This document shows, in pieces, positions 32,024 through 38,654 of a stretch of DNA of 64,000 nucleotides; the first letter of the stretch is position 1; every line of letters begins with the position of its first letter. The DNA lies in contig CALXLS010000001.1 of the NCBI GenBank assembly GCA_944389265.1, forward strand, positions 82,359 to 146,358, read 5' to 3'. Origin of the DNA: an uncultured Alphaproteobacteria bacterium. Its GTDB lineage: Bacteria; Pseudomonadota; Alphaproteobacteria; Rs-D84. The notes under the pieces were generated by a model. It was not told the DNA's origin. It ran no database searches and saw only the letters and a program-made list of their open reading frames with translations. A program made the position numbers and the translations under genes.

Positions 32024-33616
32024 TTACTCCCCGTGGCTTTGCTGAGTAAACTCACCCCTATCCAACATTTCACGAACTGCAAAATGCTTTATTTTCTTTG
32101 CGGACGTTTGTGGAAGTTCATCTTCGGTTATTGCAAAGTGCTTTACCCACTTATAAGGCGCAATTTTTAAGTTAGACGCTTTCAATAGCATCGCGACTTT
32201 TGCAACTGTTGTACCTGGCTTTACTTGGAACACCGCAAAAGGAACCGTTTTACCTTTTATCACGTATTCAAATACCGCCGCTGATAAGATTTCTTCGTTC
32301 TGAAGATACAAGTCTTCCAACTCATCTGGATAAACATTTTTACCACTATCCAAAACGATAACCTGTTTCTTGCGTCCCTTAACAATTAAACGACCGTATT
32401 TATCCAAAGTACCTAAATCCCCTGTTTTAAACCAGCCGTTTTCAAATGCGGCAGAATTAGCCTCATCATTATCCACATAACCAGGCATAACCAAATTACC
32501 ACGGACCCAAATTTCACCGATTCCATGTTTGTCGGGATTATGAATTTCTATCTCGTTTCCTGGAAGTGGCCCCGCATAGTGCATTGAACCATCTGGCATA
32601 CGGAAAGCAAAGTTAAAGTTTGCGGGTCCCGTTGTTTCTGTCAGTCCATAGCAATCACCAACCACAAAATCCAAACTTTCAAAGAATTTTCTAATAGACG
32701 GTTTTAATGTCGCACCAGCGGATACTAATACCTTTGTATTTCCACCGAACAATTCATGAACAGGTTTAGTCACTTTCTTAACCAACCACCCCATTCCGAT
32801 AGCACGTAAAACCCTACGCAAAGAAATTACAATGCGCATAAATGTATAAACATGCTTTTCTTTCGCTGCTTCTACTATTCTTTTATAAAAAGCTTCCCAA
32901 ATACGTGGGACAGCAGGTATAACCTCTGGATGATATTGTTGAAAATCTTTTAAAAATTCGCGAGGATTTAATATCGGTTGCAGCAATAACTTACCTTCTA
33001 ATACCAATGGTGCAATTATATTTATTACAACACCATATATATGATAAAGAGGCAAGAACCCATAAAATGTATACCCTGGGTGAATTACAGGTTTATAAAA
33101 TAATGCCCCCTGCCCCAAAGATAAAATATTGTCATGTGTCAACCCAACAACTTTTGGATTACCTGTCGAACCTGAAGTAAAAGACAGCATCGCTATATCT
33201 TCACGACCTGCATCTGCAGCAACAAAATCTTTCTCGTCTGTGTCATCGGGTGTTTCGATATCAAACATCTTCGGACCACCTTCAATGAAATAGTCTTTCT
33301 GAGCAAGCGCCAGTTTACAATTCGTTCTTTCCATCATGTTCAGATGCTCTTTTGCAGACAAACCTGTATCTAACATCAAAACACGCGCACCTTGTGAAGT
33401 TATAGCAAAATAAGATTTGATAAATTCAGGTGTATTGCCGGATAATATCGCAACAGTATCACCCTTCTTTATACCAAATTTCTTTGCTAGTAAAACAGCA
33501 CGCTGTTTTACTTTTCTTAACAAGTCCGCATAAGTTTCATTCTGTCTGACAAAGAAAATACGGTCTTTGTTCTGAAAACAAACTTCCTGCAACATTTCGT
33601 ATATATTTTTTATCAT
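32024..33616 (-). CDS. Long-chain fatty-acid--CoA ligase (AMP-dependent synthetase family)
   Basis: AMP-binding motif LSFTSGSTGNPKVVGLTH, then YGLTET, and GWFKTGDLG…VKGRKKQVIVL. Confidence 0.75.
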   Translation of the reverse strand: MIKNIYEMLQEVCFQNKDRIFFVRQNETYADLLRKVKQRAVLLAKKFGIKKGDTVAILSGNTPEFIKSYFAITSQGARVLMLDTGLSAKEHLNMMERTNCKLALAQKDYFIEGGPKMFDIETPDDTDEKDFVAADAGREDIAMLSFTSGSTGNPKVVGLTHDNILSLGQGALFYKPVIHPGYTFYGFLPLYHIYGVVINIIAPLVLEGKLLLQPILNPREFLKDFQQYHPEVIPAVPRIWEAFYKRIVEAAKEKHVYTFMRIVISLRRVLRAIGMGWLVKKVTKPVHELFGGNTKVLVSAGATLKPSIRKFFESLDFVVGDCYGLTETTGPANFNFAFRMPDGSMHYAGPLPGNEIEIHNPDKHGIGEIWVRGNLVMPGYVDNDEANSAAFENGWFKTGDLGTLDKYGRLIVKGRKKQVIVLDSGKNVYPDELEDLYLQNEEILSAAVFEYVIKGKTVPFAVFQVKPGTTVAKVAMLLKASNLKIAPYKWVKHFAITEDELPQTSAKKIKHFAVREMLDRGEFTQQSHGE

Positions 33617-34008
33617 AACAATTTTACTCTTTTGTTAATTGGACACAATGTAAGCCACCATGACTCAAACCATTATGAGTATATACCGTTTTACCAAGGA
33701 AAAACAACCTATTTCATAAAAATACACCGCTATATAGAAAAATATATAAATATTGACTAATTATTTTTATACTTAACTTTGTCAATATATAGACATTGAT
33801 TCAATATTTTTTACTATATTTTGTATTTTTTTATAAAATACGAATCATTTTTATACATAATCCAGTATATTCTATACACAAAAAATTATTTAGTATTTCG
33901 TTTTATGAATCGCATATCTTCCTATGCCCCGGAAAAGGGGCGTTTTAAAAAGTAAAGCGAAAAATAAAATTTTTTTCACTTTTTATTGATTGATACTTTT
34001 AACTTTAT

Positions 34009-34055
34009 ACTATATATTGTTATCAAATTAACCGAATAACTACTATATATTGTGT
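34009..34055 (+). promoter_or_regulatory. Two NrdR boxes upstream of nrdD
   Basis: ACTATATATTGT at 34009-34020 and ACTATATATTGTGT at 34042-34055 (start-to-start 33 bp). Both match the NrdR-box palindrome consensus acaCwAtATaTwGtgt and sit immediately 5' of an RNR operon. Confidence 0.5.
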
Positions 34056-34078
34056 TTTTAGAATATCGGAGTAATAAG

Positions 34079-36109
34079 ATGTCTAATGAAACAGCAGAGA
34101 ATAAAATACAGATTATTCTGACACTTAGCACCAGATTGAAAGTCGTTCAGAAACGTTCTGGTGAAACAGTACCTTTTGATTCGCGTAAGATTTTTGATGC
34201 TATAAAAAAGGCTGTTGCGGTTACAAAAGAAATTTCCGAAGAAAGAATCGCAGCAGTTACACAAACCGTACTTGAAAAATTAGAAGCAAAATTTGTAGAT
34301 AAGGTTCCAACAGTCGAGGCAATCCAAGATACAGTTATAGAAACTTTAATGGATACGAAAGCATACAAAACTGCAGAAGCATATATTATATATCGTCAAA
34401 AACGTAGCGAAATTCGTAATTCTTATGTTGATGCAGTAGAAGTTATCGAAGGCTATGTAGGTGGTTCTAACTGGCGAGTAAAAGAAAATGCTAATATCGG
34501 TTATTCAATTGGTGGACTTATTTTGCGTACTAGTGAACGCGTAACTGCTGAATATTGGTTAAATTTGTACCCTAAAGAAATTGCAGAAGCACATAAAAAC
34601 GCATCTATTCATATCCATGACCTGGGTTGGTTAACGGGCTATTGTGCAGGCTGGTCGTTGCGTGAACTTTTATATGAAGGGTTTAACGGTGTACCAGGTT
34701 ATCTACAATGTGAACCTGCAAAGCATATGGCAACTGCTATTTCACACATGGTTAATTTCTTGGGTACTTTGCAAAATGAATTCGCAGGTGCACAAGCATT
34801 CTCGTCTGTTGATACTTATTTAGCACCTTATGTAAGAATAGATAATCTATCTTATGCAGATGTAAAAAATGCTATGCAGACTCTTATCTTCAACTGTGCT
34901 GTACCTTGTCGTTGGGGGACGCAGACACCATTTATTAACTTTACATTTGACTGGACTTGCCCAGAAGATTTGAAAAACCAACACCCTTTTGTTGGTGGTA
35001 AGCAAGTTGACTTTAAGTATGGCGACCTGCAAAATGAAATGGACATCATTAATAAGGCCTTTTTGGAAGTTATGACAGAAGGTGATGCACAGGGGCGTCC
35101 TTTCACATTCCCTATTCCAACATATAATATAACAAATGATTTTCCTTGGGATCATCCAAATGTCAAACCATTGTTCGATTTAGCGGCAAAATACGGAATA
35201 CCTAATTTCCAGAATTTCTTAAATTCTGATTTGAATCCAACAGATGTTCGTTCTATGTGCTGCAGATTGCGCTTGGATGTTCGTGAGTTGTTAAAACGTG
35301 GTGGTGGTTTGTTCGGTTCTGCAGAAAAAACAGGTTCTATCGGTGTTGTCACAATTAACCTAGCGCGTTTGGGTTATGTACACAAAGGCGATAGAGATGG
35401 TTTATTTACAGAATTAAAACGTTTATTAGATATGGGGCGCGATTCATTAGAAATAAAACGTCGCATAATATCTAAAAATATGGAACGCGGTTTGTATCCG
35501 TTTACAAAACGTTATCTGGGTGACTGGTCTCATCACTTCTCTACAATCGGTGTAAACGGTGCAAATGAAATGGTGTTGAACTTTACAAACGGTAAAGACA
35601 ATATCGCAACGCCCTTCGGTAAAAAATTAGTCTTGGATGTTATGGACTTTATAAGAGAGAATTTGGCCAACTTCCAAGAACAAACAGGAAATTTATATAA
35701 CTTAGAGGCTACACCAGCGGAAGGATGCTCTTATCGCTTTGCAAAAACAGACGTAAAGAACTTCCCAGACATTATAACCGCGGGTACAAAAGACGCACCT
35801 TATTATACAAACTCTACACAATTGCCTGTAAATTATACAGATGACCCATTTGTTGCATTAGAACACCAAGAAGACTTTCAACGCAAATATACTGGTGGAA
35901 CTATGTTGCACTTGTATATGGGCGAACCAGTATCTTCAGGTGAAGCAGCACAAAAAATTGTTCGCACAATCTTTGAAAACTACAAGATTCCATACATGAC
36001 TTTGACACCGACGTTCTCGATTTGTCCAAAGCATGGTTATCTGCCTGGTAAGCACGAATTCTGCCCGAAATGCGATGCAGAAATTGCTGCAAACCAGAAT
36101 AAGGAATAA
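34079..36109 (+). CDS. nrdD: Anaerobic (class III) ribonucleoside-triphosphate reductase, catalytic body with ATP-cone and zinc ribbon, but lacking the glycyl-radical loop (interrupted gene; see findings)
   Basis: GGAG SD with ATG at 34079. N-terminal ATP-cone (VVQKRSGETVPFDSRKIFDAIKKA). NrdD core, with a C-terminal zinc ribbon CPKHGY…CPKCD. Terminates at TAA 36107-09 before any RxxG[YF] radical motif. Confidence 0.8.
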   Translation: MSNETAENKIQIILTLSTRLKVVQKRSGETVPFDSRKIFDAIKKAVAVTKEISEERIAAVTQTVLEKLEAKFVDKVPTVEAIQDTVIETLMDTKAYKTAEAYIIYRQKRSEIRNSYVDAVEVIEGYVGGSNWRVKENANIGYSIGGLILRTSERVTAEYWLNLYPKEIAEAHKNASIHIHDLGWLTGYCAGWSLRELLYEGFNGVPGYLQCEPAKHMATAISHMVNFLGTLQNEFAGAQAFSSVDTYLAPYVRIDNLSYADVKNAMQTLIFNCAVPCRWGTQTPFINFTFDWTCPEDLKNQHPFVGGKQVDFKYGDLQNEMDIINKAFLEVMTEGDAQGRPFTFPIPTYNITNDFPWDHPNVKPLFDLAAKYGIPNFQNFLNSDLNPTDVRSMCCRLRLDVRELLKRGGGLFGSAEKTGSIGVVTINLARLGYVHKGDRDGLFTELKRLLDMGRDSLEIKRRIISKNMERGLYPFTKRYLGDWSHHFSTIGVNGANEMVLNFTNGKDNIATPFGKKLVLDVMDFIRENLANFQEQTGNLYNLEATPAEGCSYRFAKTDVKNFPDIITAGTKDAPYYTNSTQLPVNYTDDPFVALEHQEDFQRKYTGGTMLHLYMGEPVSSGEAAQKIVRTIFENYKIPYMTLTPTFSICPKHGYLPGKHEFCPKCDAEIAANQNKE

Positions 36110-36151
36110 AAAGTTAAAAAAACAAACAAAAAAGAAAGGGAGGAAAACATT

Positions 36152-36340
36152 ATGCAAGCAACAGAAAATACTCAAAGAACACCATGTGAAATCTTTTCTC
36201 GTTCAATGGGTTTTATCAGACCTGTATCTAATTTCAATATTGGGAAGTATTCTGAATTCTGCGAAAGAAAAACATTTACAGAAGCAAATAGTTTAAGTGC
36301 TGGACAAAGACACTGTGAATTAATGAAAAAAGCTGCATAA
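36152..36340 (+). CDS. 62-aa ORF encoding the class III RNR glycyl-radical loop, separated from nrdD by an in-frame TAA plus 14 codons
   Basis: SRSMGFIRPVSNFNIGKYSEFCERKTF matches the NrdD C-terminal radical motif (E. coli RVCGYLGSPDARPFNAGKQEEVKRR). GGGAGG lies 8 nt before the ATG. Same reading frame as nrdD. Confidence 0.45.
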   Translation: MQATENTQRTPCEIFSRSMGFIRPVSNFNIGKYSEFCERKTFTEANSLSAGQRHCELMKKAA

Positions 36341-36344
36341 TATT

Positions 36345-37046
36345 ATGAGAGATATTCAGATTGGGGGTTTGGTTTCATTCACAACAATAGACTATCCAGG
36401 GAAATTGGCTGCGGTCGTCTTTCTTGTGGGTTGTCCGCTTCGTTGTGCATACTGTTCTAATCCCCATTTACTGAATGTTGGTGACGGGGAATACGACCCA
36501 GAAAAAGTTTTCGAATGGTTGCAATCTCGCGTCGGGAAATTAGAAGCCGTCGTCTTTTCTGGTGGCGAGGCTTTAATGCAAGGTGACGCACTTATAGAAT
36601 ATATGCGTCGCGTAAAAGATTTAGGTTTTTATATCGGACTTCATACAAACGGTTTCTACCCAGAAACCTTAAAAAAAGCATCTGAAATCGTAGATTGGAT
36701 TGGATTAGATTATAAGGCTACTCGAAATAAATATCCCGAATTAGTCGGTCAAAATATTGCACACGACCATATGATAAAAAGTTTATGTGCTTGGTTGGAT
36801 ACAGGAAAAGATATGGAAGTTCGCATAACCTGCGACCCAAGACACGTGACAAAGTTAGATTTATTAGAAATTATACAAGATTTACATTCACGCGGTGTAA
36901 AGAAAATCGCAATTCAAAAATATGTTCCACATTTTGAAGACAATGAACATGGAACGACACCAGAACAACGCAATCAATTCTTTAACGATGATAATTTGCG
37001 TAATAATATAAATTCTCTTTTTGATTCCGTCATTTGGCGTGAATAA
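36345..37046 (+). CDS. nrdG: Anaerobic RNR activating enzyme (radical SAM)
   Basis: CPLRCAYC (CxxxCxxC) near the N-terminus, FSGGEAL, and size and position directly after nrdD. Confidence 0.8.
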   Translation: MRDIQIGGLVSFTTIDYPGKLAAVVFLVGCPLRCAYCSNPHLLNVGDGEYDPEKVFEWLQSRVGKLEAVVFSGGEALMQGDALIEYMRRVKDLGFYIGLHTNGFYPETLKKASEIVDWIGLDYKATRNKYPELVGQNIAHDHMIKSLCAWLDTGKDMEVRITCDPRHVTKLDLLEIIQDLHSRGVKKIAIQKYVPHFEDNEHGTTPEQRNQFFNDDNLRNNINSLFDSVIWRE

Positions 37047-37049
37047 ACA

Positions 37050-37080
37050 AATAAAAAAACCGCCTTTCGGCGGTTATATT
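37050..37080. terminator. Bidirectional terminator between nrdG and the convergent OMP gene
   Basis: AAAAAAACCGCC-TTTC-GGCGGTT. The T-run is strongest on the minus strand. Confidence 0.45.
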
Positions 37081-37090
37081 TAAAAAAGAT

Positions 37091-37759
37091 TTAGAAAGAA
37101 TAACGTAATCCTAACTTTACTTCATGCGCATATACAAATTCCCCTTCTACATCAGAAGAATTAAAGCGATATGCTATATCTGCAGCCCAACTTTCTGTAA
37201 AATTATATGCTGTACCAATAGCTACCTGCCATTCAAATTCTTTCTTCTTATCATCCGCACCAACAATATGTCTATTTCCAATCATCGGAATTGAGGAAGT
37301 AATATCAACCGTTGCGTACTGATTATAAGTACCTAAACCAATACCAGCACCAACATAAGGCGTCCAATTAGAATTTTCTAAATCAAAATCATAATACAAA
37401 TTAAATAAATAAGAATTATGCTTTACAGATGTTGATGTGTTAATTGTCATCATCGCATTTGATACCAATTCATATTTATCTTCAGATGCACTGCGCAAAG
37501 CATATTCTAATTCTGCACGAATATTTCCATATTTAATACCTGCAGTAAATTCACCAGCGATAGCAGAATCAAAATCCATATCGCCACCACCATTTTTTAC
37601 AATCATCTCTGCAGAATTTGGGTCATACCCCATGCGCTTTGCAGAAGTGCCGGCCTTATCAACAACAACACCCAGACCAACATACGGTGTTAAATCCGCA
37701 GCGAATGCACCTGTTGCAAAAACTGAAACCATTGTAAAAATAGGTAAAATCTTTTTCAT
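37091..37759 (-). CDS. Small outer-membrane beta-barrel protein (Omp25/Omp31-like / OmpA-like barrel)
   Basis: Signal peptide MKKILPIFTMVSVFATGAFA; 222 aa; C-terminal …LGLRYSF. Confidence 0.55.
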   Translation of the reverse strand: MKKILPIFTMVSVFATGAFAADLTPYVGLGVVVDKAGTSAKRMGYDPNSAEMIVKNGGGDMDFDSAIAGEFTAGIKYGNIRAELEYALRSASEDKYELVSNAMMTINTSTSVKHNSYLFNLYYDFDLENSNWTPYVGAGIGLGTYNQYATVDITSSIPMIGNRHIVGADDKKKEFEWQVAIGTAYNFTESWAADIAYRFNSSDVEGEFVYAHEVKLGLRYSF

Positions 37760-37889
37760 TGTTTCTCCTTTTTATATGAGAAAACTATCCTACTTTTAAC
37801 CTAATAAGTCAAGGCAACAAAATACAGCGAAGGCGCCTTGACCATTACGGAAATAAAACCTATACTCAATATTGTATACGGATAATCAC

Positions 37890-38654
37890 ATGAAAATTCA
37901 AAATGAAATAGAACAATCTAATAAATATATGTTGGAAACATTTAATTTTATGGGCAAAGAACTTGTACAAATATTACCTGAGAATGTTTATAAAATTGAA
38001 GCAATGATAAAAAATGATTCTGCATATATAAAAACATTTGATAAAAATGCGGCTCCAAATAAAAAGAATTTCAACGGCTCTACTGCATATTGGATGTCTA
38101 AATTATTAAACCTTATGCAAGATGCAAAGATAAAAAACACAGACCAAGAATATAGAAATATAATCGAAAAGGTCGTAATATCTATTGACTCAGAAAATTC
38201 CACGCATTTAAATGCGGACGGGGTTGGGCGAAGGGAAATCTCGGCCAGAATATCTGCAATAGAAAAAAATAGACTTCTAAATCTTTTAAAATATCCACGT
38301 GAAAATAATTTTGAACTTATAAGGATTATATCTGAAAAAACTCATCCTGAAAACAACCAAAAGAAAGCACGAGCAAACCTTTCTTTTGCAAGTAAATTTT
38401 GTCACTATGCATGTTTTTTCTTATTTGAGGGGACAGAATTTCAAGATAACTTTTCAATTCATGATAATGTGCTTAAGAATGCTTTAGTTTACTATGCTGA
38501 TTATTATGGAATTAAATTAGAAAAAGACACTTTAACAACTTATGCCAAATACAGCCAACTTATAGACTTAATAATTGAAAAGAATGGAAACTTAATTAGC
38601 AGGAATGGATTTGACCACCTATTATGGTATTATTTTAAAGCAAGAGCCTATTAA
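37890..38654 (+). CDS. Hypothetical protein (255 aa), A+T-rich gene
   Basis: ORF with an ATG at 37890 (the track starts at an upstream TTG). No motif recognised. A+T-richer than the core genes. Confidence 0.35.
   Translation: MKIQNEIEQSNKYMLETFNFMGKELVQILPENVYKIEAMIKNDSAYIKTFDKNAAPNKKNFNGSTAYWMSKLLNLMQDAKIKNTDQEYRNIIEKVVISIDSENSTHLNADGVGRREISARISAIEKNRLLNLLKYPRENNFELIRIISEKTHPENNQKKARANLSFASKFCHYACFFLFEGTEFQDNFSIHDNVLKNALVYYADYYGIKLEKDTLTTYAKYSQLIDLIIEKNGNLISRNGFDHLLWYYFKARAY

What the first reader, a model, noticed from the sequence alone, without database searches (positions are those of the whole stretch)
34079..36340. nrdD is interrupted by an in-frame TAA exactly between the zinc ribbon and the glycyl-radical loop, and the radical loop sits on its own 62-codon ORF
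The 676-codon NrdD ORF (34079-36109) has an ATP-cone, the catalytic barrel and a C-terminal zinc ribbon (CPKHGY…CPKCD). It stops at TAA 36107-09 without any RxxG[YF] radical motif, which in every class III RNR I know lies about 15 residues after that ribbon. Fourteen codons later, in the same frame (36110-36151 encodes KVKKTNKKEREENI, a Lys-rich spacer like the E. coli NKDPKKMRVVRRV linker), an ATG at 36152 opens a 62-codon ORF. Its core SRSMGFIRPVSNFNIGKYSEFCERK matches the NrdD glycyl-radical loop (E. coli RVCGYLGSPDARPFNAGKQEEVKRR). The spacer contains GGGAGG 8 nt before that ATG, so independent (re)initiation is plausible. I see three readings. First, a genuine split enzyme whose radical-bearing spare-part peptide docks in trans, as the stand-alone glycyl-radical protein GrcA/YfiD does with pyruvate formate-lyase. 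Second, a recent nonsense mutation, so the gene is a pseudogene in progress, or stop-codon readthrough. Third, an assembly error in this A-rich stretch. nrdG immediately downstream is intact and two NrdR boxes are present upstream, so the locus looks maintained.
Basis: partly seen in the sequence, partly recalled or inferred. Interest (0 to 1): 0.62.

Follow-up and report, generated by a model that had tools for sequence, protein, structure and literature searches.

The report
Two-piece anaerobic ribonucleotide reductase, separate radical peptide
In this gut bacterium the oxygen-sensitive enzyme that makes DNA building blocks is encoded in two pieces, with the short loop that carries its free radical on its own conserved 62-codon gene; this layout is widespread, I found no description of it, and phages carry the small gene on its own.

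Summary
nrdD (34079-36109, 676 aa) ends at a TAA just after its zinc ribbon and has no glycyl-radical motif. A 62-codon ORF (36152-36340) with its own GGGAGG ribosome site encodes that loop (Gly20). An intact nrdG follows 4 nt later.

It is not an error, a pseudogene or a readthrough gene. All 80 related species genomes (Ca. Enterousia, gut Alphaproteobacteria) plus the window share the split. The spacer is 21-59 nt and the small ORF lies in any of the three frames. Each copy has a Shine-Dalgarno site. The small ORF has dN/dS of about 0.10.

The same nrdD-peptide-nrdG layout occurs in Sutterella-like and other bacteria. At least 7,978 protein clusters matched the peptide profile, and all 120 listed are stand-alone size. 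Fused relatives 46-66% identical show the break falls in the short linker between the ribbon and the Gly loop. A bootstrapped NJ tree nests three fused genes among the split ones.

IMG/VR phage contigs hold 530 copies. Of 83 phage loci examined, 80 have no nrdD or nrdG match within about 4 kb.

Best reading: an obligate two-chain class III reductase whose radical peptide docks in trans. No description of it turned up in the literature I could search.

The parts
33990..34018 (+). Promoter-like site (TTGATA, 17 nt, TATATT) upstream of nrdD
   Evidence: Consensus scan, 10 of 12 matches. It is a consensus match only, and such sites are not enriched in this region.
34007..34022 (+). NrdR-box-like site 1 (ATACTATATATTGTTA)
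   Evidence: Pattern search. It is one of only two matches in the 64-kb window and overlaps the -10 element.
34040..34055 (+). NrdR-box-like site 2 (CTACTATATATTGTGT), 33 bp from site 1
   Evidence: Pattern search.
34079..36109 (+). nrdD large chain, 676 aa: ATP-cone, catalytic barrel and zinc ribbon, with no glycyl-radical loop. Ends at TAA 36107-36109.
   Evidence: NF006126 1031.6 bits, profile 3-653 of 684; Pfam NRDD 1-529 of 562. No R..G[YF] motif. Pairwise dN/dS about 0.05 across 81 genomes.
34142..34411 (+). ATP-cone domain (residues 22-111)
   Evidence: Pfam PF03477, 78.3 bits.
35258..35263 (+). Finger-loop Cys394-Cys395 (SMCCR motif), the presumed thiyl-radical site
   Evidence: Aligns with the CC of the T. 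maritima NrdD finger loop (SCCR motif in PMC4493059). Invariant in 81 of 81.
36023..36073 (+). Zinc ribbon C649-x2-H652 ... C662-x2-C665
   Evidence: Aligns with the T. maritima NrdD stretch C-x3-H ... CPVC. All four residues invariant in 81 of 81.
36110..36151 (+). 42-nt A-rich intercistronic spacer holding the Shine-Dalgarno GGGAGG (36138-36143)
   Evidence: In relatives the spacer is 21-59 nt and puts the small ORF in any frame, but a GGAGG-type site 6-10 nt before the ATG is kept in all.
36152..36340 (+). Glycyl-radical peptide gene, 62 aa. Radical Gly20 is codon 36209-36211. Split-specific Arg9 and Cys12 (36185-36187). C-terminal ...KKAA.
   Evidence: NRDD profile 532-562 of 562 and NF006126 649-682 of 684. 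The family profile aligns Gly20 to T. maritima Gly621. dN/dS about 0.10. 267 clusters of stand-alone homologues at E <= 0.01; the 120 listed are 77-100% identical.
36345..37046 (+). nrdG, the radical-SAM activase (233 aa), starting 4 nt after the peptide stop
   Evidence: TIGR02495 NrdG2 171 bits, cut-off 131. Pfam Radical_SAM and Fer4_12. dN/dS about 0.11.
37058..37075 (.). GC-rich hairpin (AACCGCCGAAAGGCGGTT) between the convergent nrdG and the outer-membrane-protein gene; likely operon terminator
   Evidence: Terminator scan. No terminator-like site between nrdD and the peptide gene. One weak match (5-pair stem, 36426-36438) lies inside nrdG.

Best explanation
This is a functional class III (anaerobic) ribonucleotide reductase built from two polypeptides instead of one.

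The 676-aa chain carries the ATP-cone, the catalytic barrel with the finger-loop cysteines, and the zinc ribbon. The 62-aa peptide carries the glycine that holds the radical.

The three genes nrdD, peptide and nrdG appear to be co-transcribed from one NrdR-controlled promoter. The peptide is translated independently from its own strong Shine-Dalgarno site.

Proposed mechanism (inferred):
1. NrdG uses S-adenosylmethionine to abstract the C-alpha hydrogen of Gly20 on the peptide.
2. The peptide's beta-hairpin inserts into the barrel of the large chain, so that the glycyl radical sits against Cys394/Cys395.
3. Catalysis then proceeds as in fused NrdD.
4. The split-specific invariant Arg at Gly-11 and the near-invariant Cys at Gly-8 replace the lost covalent tether to the zinc-ribbon domain.

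Likely benefit (speculative): oxygen cleaves glycyl-radical proteins at the radical glycine. With a separate peptide, only a 7-kDa part needs replacing rather than a 77-kDa enzyme.

Shown here: gene anatomy, homology of each piece, conservation, purifying selection, frame independence, and fused relatives that locate the break. Inferred: trans docking, activation of the free peptide by NrdG, and the selective advantage.
For: - The two pieces tile the NrdD profiles end to end: NF006126 positions 3-653 and 649-682; Pfam NRDD 1-529 and 532-562.
- The large chain has no Gly-radical motif.
- All 81 Enterousia-clade genomes have a stop after the ribbon, then a Shine-Dalgarno site, an ATG and a 57-64-aa ORF. 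Spacers are 21-59 nt. Relative frames 0, +1 and +2 occur 36, 20 and 25 times. The gap to nrdG is 2-16 nt.
- Nei-Gojobori dN/dS is 0.10 for the peptide, 0.05 for nrdD and 0.11 for nrdG.
- Catalytic C189, C394, C395 and E548 and the four zinc ligands are invariant in 81 of 81.
- The core RxxCE.[FW][ST]RxMG[FY]xRPxxxFNxGKxxE is invariant across distant peptides.
- The family profile aligns Gly20 to the radical Gly621 of T. maritima NrdD (PMC4493059).
- The same three-gene layout occurs in other lineages whose NrdD is 56-62% identical: L082, and the Sutterella-like L086 and L089. Junctions there are 92 nt, 2 nt (TAAaaATG) and overlapping.
- 1,134 representative clusters at 50% identity match the peptide. 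The best 148 are 47-152 aa and 147 start with Met. At least 7,978 clusters at 90% identity match the profile.
- Fused relatives 46-66% identical (the closest full-length ones 56-59%) read ...CPLC-x5-QPCEVWTRVMGYHRPV. This places the break in the linker between the last ribbon Cys and the Gly loop.
- AF2 on the peptide alone gives a hairpin with Gly20 at the turn, at low confidence.
- Ca. Enterousia genomes are under 1 Mb and strictly fermentative (PMC12306168), so a dead three-gene operon is unlikely to persist.
Against: - There is no experimental or structural evidence for the complex.
- The peptide-alone model has low confidence (pLDDT 60.7).
- I could not check whether these genomes carry another ribonucleotide reductase.
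- dS is close to saturation (pS about 0.65-0.72), so the dN/dS values are approximate.
- In the window itself the peptide ORF is in frame with nrdD behind a single TAA, so low-level readthrough in this particular strain cannot be excluded.
- The oxygen-repair rationale and the roles of Arg9 and Cys12 are inference only.
Confidence: 0.85

Rival explanations
1. A recent nonsense mutation: nrdD is a pseudogene in the making, and the downstream ORF is the remnant of its C-terminus.
For: In the window the small ORF lies in the same frame as nrdD, separated by a single TAA and 14 codons.
Against: - The stop is present in 81 of 81 species-level genomes whose NrdD is only 84-100% identical to the window's.
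- Synonymous divergence is near saturation, while dN/dS is 0.05-0.11 for all three genes.
- A dedicated Shine-Dalgarno site and ATG are conserved.
- The layout recurs in lineages whose NrdD is 56-62% identical.
Confidence: 0.01
2. An assembly or sequencing error in the A-rich stretch created a false stop.
For: The spacer is A-rich and of low complexity.
Against: - The same architecture appears in 80 independent MAGs and genomes from different studies and assemblers, including a circular long-read assembly (OZ007020.1, L035).
- It appears in 267 metagenomic protein clusters.
- Spacer length varies from 21 to 59 nt. The Shine-Dalgarno site and ATG cannot be produced by a homopolymer error.
Confidence: 0.005
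3. Programmed stop-codon readthrough, frameshifting or ribosome hopping joins the two ORFs, and the functional enzyme is a normal fused NrdD.
For: - In 36 of 81 genomes, including the window, the two ORFs are in frame.
- In L086 and L089 the junctions are very tight: 2 nt and overlapping.
Against: - 45 of 81 genomes are out of frame, split between +1 and +2.
- 13 of the 36 in-frame spacers carry further in-frame stops.
- Spacer sequence and length are not conserved apart from the Shine-Dalgarno site and the ATG, which are the hallmarks of independent initiation.
- No recoding signal or RNA family was found.
- Phage copies are free-standing genes with no nrdD upstream.
Confidence: 0.03
4. The peptide is not the catalytic radical carrier. 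It acts as a regulator or decoy, for example titrating NrdG, or it is a GrcA-type back-up for some other fused glycyl-radical enzyme. The truncated NrdD would then be inactive or use another radical source.
For: No biochemical data exist. Most phage copies have no nrdD within about 4 kb, so they act on a host component that is not identified.
Against: - The peptide matches NrdD-type, not PFL-type, radical domains. There is no Pfam Gly_radical hit.
- It sits between nrdD and nrdG in every bacterial locus examined.
- The large chain keeps every catalytic residue under strong purifying selection yet lacks the glycine that class III chemistry needs.
- Fused relatives carry nearly the same peptide sequence as their C-terminus.
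Confidence: 0.05

Closest known systems
Canonical class III ribonucleotide reductase NrdD-NrdG (phage T4, E. coli, T. maritima, N. bacilliformis, P. copri)
   Same: - The same families: NF006126/TIGR02487/PF13597 for NrdD and TIGR02495 for NrdG.
- ATP-cone, finger-loop CC motif as in T. maritima, Cys/His zinc ribbon, and the Gly loop RxxG[YF].
- An adjacent activase gene and NrdR-type boxes upstream.
   Different: In every solved structure that matched, and in the profiles, the Gly loop follows the ribbon on the same chain: 13 residues from the last ribbon Cys to Gly621 in T. maritima. Here a stop, a spacer and a new translation start intervene, and the loop is a separate 62-aa protein. The peptide also has a split-specific invariant Arg at Gly-11.
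GrcA/YfiD of E. coli and Y06I of phage T4 (autonomous glycyl-radical cofactors, 'spare parts' for pyruvate formate-lyase)
   Same: - A small free-standing protein that carries a glycyl-radical loop.
- It is presumed to be activated by the partner enzyme's activase and to insert into the partner's barrel in trans.
- Phages carry copies.
   Different: - GrcA is homologous to the PFL C-terminus. This peptide is homologous to the NrdD C-terminus and has no Gly_radical Pfam hit.
- GrcA supplements a PFL that has its own radical domain and acts after oxygen cleavage. Here the large chain has no radical domain, so the peptide is obligatory.
- Only YfiD and Y06I have been validated. Spare parts for other glycyl-radical enzymes were posed as an open possibility (PMC8683613).
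Split ribonucleotide reductases of other classes (NrdJa/NrdJb of Pseudomonas aeruginosa; the nrdA-a/nrdA-b genes-in-pieces of Aeromonas phage Aeh1)
   Same: The catalytic subunit is encoded by two consecutive ORFs that assemble non-covalently.
   Different: - Those are class II and class I enzymes. NrdJa/NrdJb separates off the C-terminal IscU-like and zinc-finger part (PMC9669993).
- In Aeh1 a homing-endonuclease gene splits nrdA (own knowledge).
- Here the piece split off is the radical cofactor itself, the spacer is only 21-59 nt, and it holds no mobile element.
Multi-subunit glycyl-radical enzymes (benzylsuccinate synthase alpha-beta-gamma, 4-hydroxyphenylacetate decarboxylase)
   Same: Small accessory polypeptides are encoded next to the catalytic subunit and the activase.
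   Different: In those enzymes the radical glycine stays on the large catalytic chain, and the small subunits are unrelated Fe-S or regulatory proteins (own knowledge; PMC12590467 abstract).

Membership tests
Class III RNR catalytic subunit NrdD (NF006126 / TIGR02487 / PF13597) | Whole-protein HMM score above the curated cut-off | tested here: met
   Large ORF: NF006126 1031.6 bits (cut-off 548), TIGR02487 475.3 (326.35), PF13597 571.4 (26.2).
Class III RNR catalytic subunit NrdD (NF006126 / TIGR02487 / PF13597) | Finger-loop cysteine(s) and other active-site residues | tested here: met
   The SMCCR motif (C394/C395) aligns with the T. maritima CC. C189 and E548 are also conserved. All are invariant in 81 of 81.
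Class III RNR catalytic subunit NrdD (NF006126 / TIGR02487 / PF13597) | C-terminal zinc ribbon | tested here: met
   C649-x2-H652 ... C662-x2-C665 aligns with the T. maritima stretch C-x3-H ... CPVC and is invariant. Metal binding itself is not testable here.
Class III RNR catalytic subunit NrdD (NF006126 / TIGR02487 / PF13597) | Glycyl-radical loop RxxG[YF] on the same polypeptide, C-terminal to the ribbon | tested here: not met
   The large ORF has no such motif. The loop is on the separate ORF 36152-36340. The two gene products together satisfy the feature.
Class III RNR catalytic subunit NrdD (NF006126 / TIGR02487 / PF13597) | Cognate radical-SAM activase NrdG encoded alongside | tested here: met
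   36345-37046 scores 171 bits against TIGR02495 (cut-off 131).
Class III RNR catalytic subunit NrdD (NF006126 / TIGR02487 / PF13597) | NTP reduction that depends on a glycyl radical (EPR doublet, oxygen-sensitive) | not testable with these tools
   Needs anaerobic biochemistry.
Autonomous glycyl-radical cofactor GrcA/YfiD (IPR011140, Pfam Gly_radical PF01228) | Small free-standing protein carrying a glycyl-radical loop | tested here: met
   A 62-aa ORF with its own Shine-Dalgarno site and ATG. The loop aligns to T. maritima NrdD Gly621.
Autonomous glycyl-radical cofactor GrcA/YfiD (IPR011140, Pfam Gly_radical PF01228) | Homology to the PFL-type radical domain (PF01228) | tested here: not met
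   The Pfam scan at E <= 1 gives only NRDD (19.8 bits) and a spurious lipoprotein hit. There is no Gly_radical hit.
Autonomous glycyl-radical cofactor GrcA/YfiD (IPR011140, Pfam Gly_radical PF01228) | The partner enzyme has its own radical domain, and the small protein replaces it after oxidative cleavage | tested here: not met
   The partner large chain lacks any radical loop, so the peptide is an obligate subunit, not a spare.
NrdR regulon | Tandem 16-bp NrdR boxes about 31-32 bp apart overlapping the promoter | tested here: inconclusive
They are the only two in the window, but the count is not beyond chance on its own. Presence of nrdR was not checked.
Thioredoxin-type NrdD (N. bacilliformis / T. 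maritima group) | CC in the finger loop plus a conserved Glu; reductant is thioredoxin rather than formate | tested here: inconclusive
   The CC and E548 are present. A related split operon (L082) has a gene with pyridine-nucleotide-disulfide oxidoreductase domains (Pyr_redox_2) next to nrdG. The reductant is not testable here, and the subtype definition is recalled from memory.

The most novel reading that the evidence does not exclude
The NrdD-type radical peptide is an exchangeable, consumable radical cofactor. This would be the first 'spare-part' system for a glycyl-radical enzyme other than pyruvate formate-lyase.

In thousands of bacterial lineages the class III reductase has given up its built-in radical loop and draws on a pool of separately translated 7-kDa peptides. 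These can be replaced after oxygen cleavage.

Many gut and rumen phages carry orphan copies: 530 in IMG/VR, mostly with no nrdD or nrdG match within about 4 kb. They would load the host's large chain, through the host's activase, and keep dNTP synthesis going during infection.

The break between the ribbon and the loop has been made or healed more than once in evolution.
Probability: 0.45. Interest if true: 0.9.

Novelty: new variant of a known kind. Interest (0 to 1): 0.8.

Why it matters
All characterised glycyl-radical enzymes carry the radical glycine on the catalytic polypeptide. The only autonomous radical proteins validated so far are YfiD/GrcA and T4 Y06I, both for pyruvate formate-lyase. 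Whether spare parts exist for other family members was explicitly left open (PMC8683613).

- A natural, obligately two-chain class III reductase makes that question testable. One can ask whether the activase works on the free peptide, how the peptide docks, and whether it exchanges after oxygen damage. Sutterella-like relatives suggest that cultured Sutterellaceae are worth screening as an experimental system.
- It matters for annotation. The small gene is labelled 'hypothetical' or a tiny 'NrdD'. No dedicated Pfam or NCBIfam family matched the peptide, and the only consistent PHROGs match is to a family of unknown function. Pipelines may also flag the large gene as truncated.
- The orphan phage copies would be a new, abundant auxiliary metabolic gene.
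- A detachable radical loop could be a useful tool for engineering glycyl-radical enzymes.

Tried and rejected
- **Two-chain model.** I tried to model the two chains as one linked sequence with AlphaFold.
- **Natural fusions.** I looked for natural fusions to model instead and found none. P0404 is an unrelated fungal protein mis-clustered with the peptide. The longer Sutterella-like NrdD entries are internal duplications and still end after the ribbon.
- **PDB search.** phmmer of the 62-aa peptide against PDB found nothing at E <= 10. Only the family profile (E 0.03) and an artificial ribbon-plus-loop query (E 3e-5) reached T. maritima NrdD.
- **Peptide-alone model.** The AF2 model has low confidence (pLDDT 60.7), so I ran no fold search on it.
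- **GenBank phages.** tblastn of a phage-type peptide gave a single weak hit. The phage signal comes from IMG/VR.
- **Rfam.** The scan of 33500-37300 found nothing above threshold.
- **Recoding and splicing.** I considered an intein, trans-splicing, a group I intron or ribosome hopping. The spacer is only 21-59 nt, it is not conserved beyond the Shine-Dalgarno site and ATG, and no RNA family matched.
- **Alternative genetic code.** Rejected, because all three genes end in TAA and the ORFs are otherwise long.
- **Synteny.** An AMP-binding gene lies upstream in both Enterousia and Sutterella-like loci, but the proteins are only 26% identical, so this is not evidence of block transfer.
- **Literature.** Eight full-text searches and nine papers read, including a June 2026 review of glycyl-radical enzymes, gave no description of a split NrdD or an NrdD-type autonomous radical peptide. 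Subscription-only literature and RNRdb notes could not be searched.
Full report
**The observation.**
- An ATG at 34079 opens a 676-codon ORF that stops at TAA 36107-36109.
- Fourteen in-frame codons (KVKKTNKKEREENI) follow.
- GGGAGG lies at 36138-36143. Eight nucleotides later, ATG 36152 opens a 62-codon ORF ending at 36340.
- nrdG starts 4 nt after that (36345-37046).
- The large ORF covers NCBIfam NF006126 positions 3-653 of 684 (1031.6 bits against a cut-off of 548), Pfam NRDD positions 1-529 of 562, and an ATP-cone.
- The small ORF covers NF006126 positions 649-682 and NRDD positions 532-562. Together the two ORFs tile a complete NrdD.
- The large ORF has no R..G[YF] motif anywhere.
- nrdG is a good TIGR02495 match (171 bits, cut-off 131).
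- Two NrdR-box-like sites, the only two in the window, lie at 34007-34022 and 34040-34055 over a promoter-like element. A GC hairpin follows nrdG at 37058-37075. No terminator-like site lies between nrdD and the peptide gene. One weak match lies inside nrdG.

**Not an error, a pseudogene or a readthrough gene.** A genome scan with the large protein returned 80 loci, one per GTDB species. All are gut or rumen Alphaproteobacteria of the Candidatus Enterousia group, with NrdD 84-100% identical to the window's.
- In all 80, and in the window, nrdD stops a few residues after the zinc ribbon. A separate 57-64-codon ORF follows, with a GGAGG-type Shine-Dalgarno site 6-10 nt before its ATG. nrdG starts 2-16 nt after it.
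- The spacer is 21-59 nt. The small ORF is in frame 0, +1 or +2 relative to nrdD in 36, 20 and 25 genomes.
- Of the 36 in-frame spacers, 13 carry further in-frame stops.
- Pairwise Nei-Gojobori dN/dS is about 0.10 for the small ORF, 0.05 for nrdD and 0.11 for nrdG. Synonymous sites are near saturation, so these values are approximate.
- The catalytic cysteines (C189, C394, C395), E548 and the four ribbon ligands are invariant in 81 of 81.
- A protein search with the small ORF found 267 clusters at E <= 0.01. The 120 listed are 57-97 aa and 77-100% identical.
- Ca. Enterousia genomes are under 1 Mb and purely fermentative (PMC12306168). A dead operon is therefore unlikely to persist across the clade.

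**The small ORF is the radical loop.** A profile built from 36 diverse stand-alone homologues has an invariant core of R, R, G, N, G, K, E and R, with Cys, Met and Arg-Pro nearly invariant. It aligns to residues 616-645 of T. maritima NrdD and puts Gly20 on Gly621.
- An artificial ribbon-plus-loop query aligns colinearly with T. maritima residues 547-636. There only 13 residues separate the last ribbon Cys from the glycine.
- AlphaFold2 on the peptide alone is of low confidence (pLDDT 60.7). It does predict a beta-hairpin (strands 15-18 and 21-24) with Gly20 at the turn, followed by two helices.

**The arrangement is a widespread family, not a clade oddity.**
- An exhaustive HMMER search of 1.84 billion representative proteins found 1,134 clusters at E <= 0.001. 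The best 148 beyond the Enterousia type are 47-152 aa, and 147 begin with Met. Of the 140 with the Gly-loop motif, 136 have Cys eight residues before the glycine.
The best 120 are all 53-93 aa.
- Genomic context for several of them shows the same operon in other bacteria. L082 has NrdD of 687 aa (62% identical), a 63-aa peptide, NrdG, and then a gene with pyridine-nucleotide-disulfide oxidoreductase domains. L086-L091 have NrdD of 675-694 aa (56-57% identical), a 57-58-aa peptide and NrdG.
- The junctions differ: 92 nt in L082, 2 nt (TAAaaATG) in L086, and overlapping in L089.
- The L086 type is Sutterella-like. The named hit at 87% identity is labelled 'Sutterella sp.', and every listed homologue again ends after the ribbon. 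One peptide cluster is labelled Candidatus Aphodousia faecalis.
- Databases call the small protein 'hypothetical' or, occasionally, a 60-aa 'anaerobic ribonucleoside-triphosphate reductase'.
- No dedicated Pfam or NCBIfam family matched the peptide. In PHROGs, four of the five peptides tested match only phrog_4132, which has no known function.

**Where the break is, and how often it happened.** A DNA pattern demanding the CPKHGY ribbon followed closely by RxxG[YF]xRP retrieved 39 metagenomic loci. Of these, 37 yielded a fused NrdD reading frame, 46-66% identical to the window's large chain.
- The closest read ...CPLC-HPDPQP-CEVWTRVMGYHRPVESFNIGKK... This is almost the Sutterella-type peptide sequence (..ERQPCEVWTRVMGYHRPVSSFN..) joined directly to the ribbon.
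- The split therefore lies in the 4-9-residue linker between the last ribbon Cys and the position eight residues before the glycine.
- Two features distinguish split peptides from fused C-termini. Arg at Gly-11 is invariant in split peptides and absent from all 28 distinct fused junctions. Cys at Gly-8 occurs in 136 of 140 split peptides against 14 of 28 fused junctions.
- I read these two residues as compensation for the lost covalent tether, possibly through the zinc-ribbon domain. This is inference.
- In a neighbour-joining tree of the barrel-plus-ribbon region (646 columns, 200 bootstraps), all split NrdDs plus three fused ones form a clade (198 of 200). The Sutterella-type split genes group with those three fused genes (200 of 200). 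Monophyly of the split state is never recovered (0 of 200).
- So either the gene was split at least twice or it was re-fused once. A proper likelihood analysis with more taxa is needed.

**Mechanism.** The best-supported reading is an obligate two-chain class III reductase.
- Shown: the operon anatomy, the homology of each piece, purifying selection, independent translation signals, and fused relatives that define the break.
- Inferred: NrdG abstracts the C-alpha hydrogen of Gly20, on the free or loosely bound peptide. The hairpin then occupies the barrel next to Cys394/395, and catalysis proceeds as in fused enzymes.
- A plausible advantage comes from established knowledge of glycyl-radical enzymes. 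Oxygen cleaves the chain at the radical glycine, so a separate peptide makes the damaged part cheap to replace. The peptide's Shine-Dalgarno site is the strongest in the operon.
- I could not model the complex, check for other reductases in these genomes, or test expression.

**Comparison with what is known.**
- The enzyme is a class III RNR by every tested criterion except the one that puts the radical loop on the catalytic chain.
- It works like GrcA/YfiD in being an autonomous radical peptide, but it is not a member of that family. It has no PFL-type Gly_radical domain, and its partner has no loop of its own.
- Split RNRs are known in class II (NrdJa/NrdJb; PMC9669993) and class I (phage Aeh1, own knowledge). 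In neither is the radical cofactor the detached piece.
- Eight full-text searches and nine papers, including a June 2026 review of the superfamily (PMC13450708) and the main RNR phylogeny papers, contain no description of a split NrdD.
- PMC8683613 states that only YfiD and Y06I have been validated, and that spare parts for other glycyl-radical enzymes are merely possible.
- I cannot exclude a description in literature outside the searchable library.

**Phages.** IMG/VR contains 530 stretches that encode the peptide.
- I examined 83 phage loci. Eighty-two carry a complete stand-alone ORF of 48-125 aa, and one is cut by the contig end.
- Eighty of the 83 have no nrdD or nrdG match within about 4 kb.
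- Some copies sit between the lysis genes and the integrase of temperate phages. One phage group has two radical-SAM genes directly upstream. One 174-kb contig, returned as two loci, has an nrdD 2.7 kb away.
- Several phage peptides are the closest relatives of the Enterousia peptide outside its clade, at 64-74% identity.
- This supports the idea that the peptide is a portable module acting in trans. It also suggests an abundant, unrecognised phage auxiliary gene.

**Verdict.** The pseudogene, readthrough and assembly-error readings are rejected. I rate this a new variant of a known kind, with high interest.

Noticed in passing
L081, L083, L085, L093-L171 (IMG/VR and metagenomic phage contigs): Orphan NrdD-type glycyl-radical peptide genes occur in phages. 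IMG/VR holds 530 matching stretches. Of 83 phage loci examined, 80 have no nrdD or nrdG match within about 4 kb. The only consistent PHROGs match is phrog_4132, annotated 'unknown function'.
   Followed up: partly
L116:1749-3979 (also L118, L119, L121, L137, L148): In one phage group, two radical-SAM genes (328 and 415 aa; Pfam Radical_SAM and Fer4_12) lie directly upstream of the peptide gene. They could be a phage-borne activase pair. They are too distant from NrdG to be found by tblastn.
   Followed up: partly
L096:2272-5412: The peptide gene sits between a cell-wall hydrolase (lysis module) and a phage integrase. This is the classic 'moron' position of a temperate phage and suggests expression from the prophage.
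   Followed up: no
window 36326-36337 (C-terminus of the peptide, ...KKAA): 112 of 120 Enterousia-type peptide clusters, and 13 of 148 diverse representatives, end in Ala-Ala. Others end in AE or A. This recalls the ssrA/ClpX C-terminal degron, so free or damaged peptide might be cleared by proteolysis. Untested.
   Followed up: partly
L176, L197, L198, L181 (metagenome contigs): Fused NrdDs nest among the split ones in a bootstrapped NJ tree. The linker between the ribbon and the Gly loop has therefore been broken or rejoined more than once.
   Followed up: partly
window 32024-33616 (- strand); L086-L091 416-2278: An AMP-binding (acyl-CoA-ligase-like) gene lies divergently upstream of nrdD, both here and in the Sutterella-like loci. 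The proteins are only 26% identical, so the shared neighbourhood may be coincidence.
   Followed up: yes
window about 33926-33946 (+ strand): A GC-rich hairpin (GCCCCGGAAAAGGGGC) followed by TTTT lies in the 460-nt intergenic region about 60 nt upstream of the nrdD promoter-like site. Further CTATATA-type repeats lie at 33730-33830. Their function is unknown, and the terminator scan did not report the hairpin.
   Followed up: no
L092 (IMGVR_UViG_3300029906_000277): A 23.6-kb contig classed as viral carries a complete Enterousia-type nrdD-peptide-nrdG operon (92% identical NrdD). It is either a prophage-flanking region or a misclassified bacterial contig.
   Followed up: no
L082:5799-6725: In a related split operon (NrdD 62% identical), a gene with pyridine-nucleotide-disulfide oxidoreductase domains (Pyr_redox_2), thioredoxin-reductase-like by my reading, follows nrdG. 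That would fit a thioredoxin-dependent NrdD subtype. No such gene is adjacent in the window.
   Followed up: no
window 37091-37759 (- strand): An outer-membrane beta-barrel protein (OMP_b-brl / Opacity family) lies convergent with nrdG. The 260-aa ORF at 37872-38654 has no Pfam match.
   Followed up: yes
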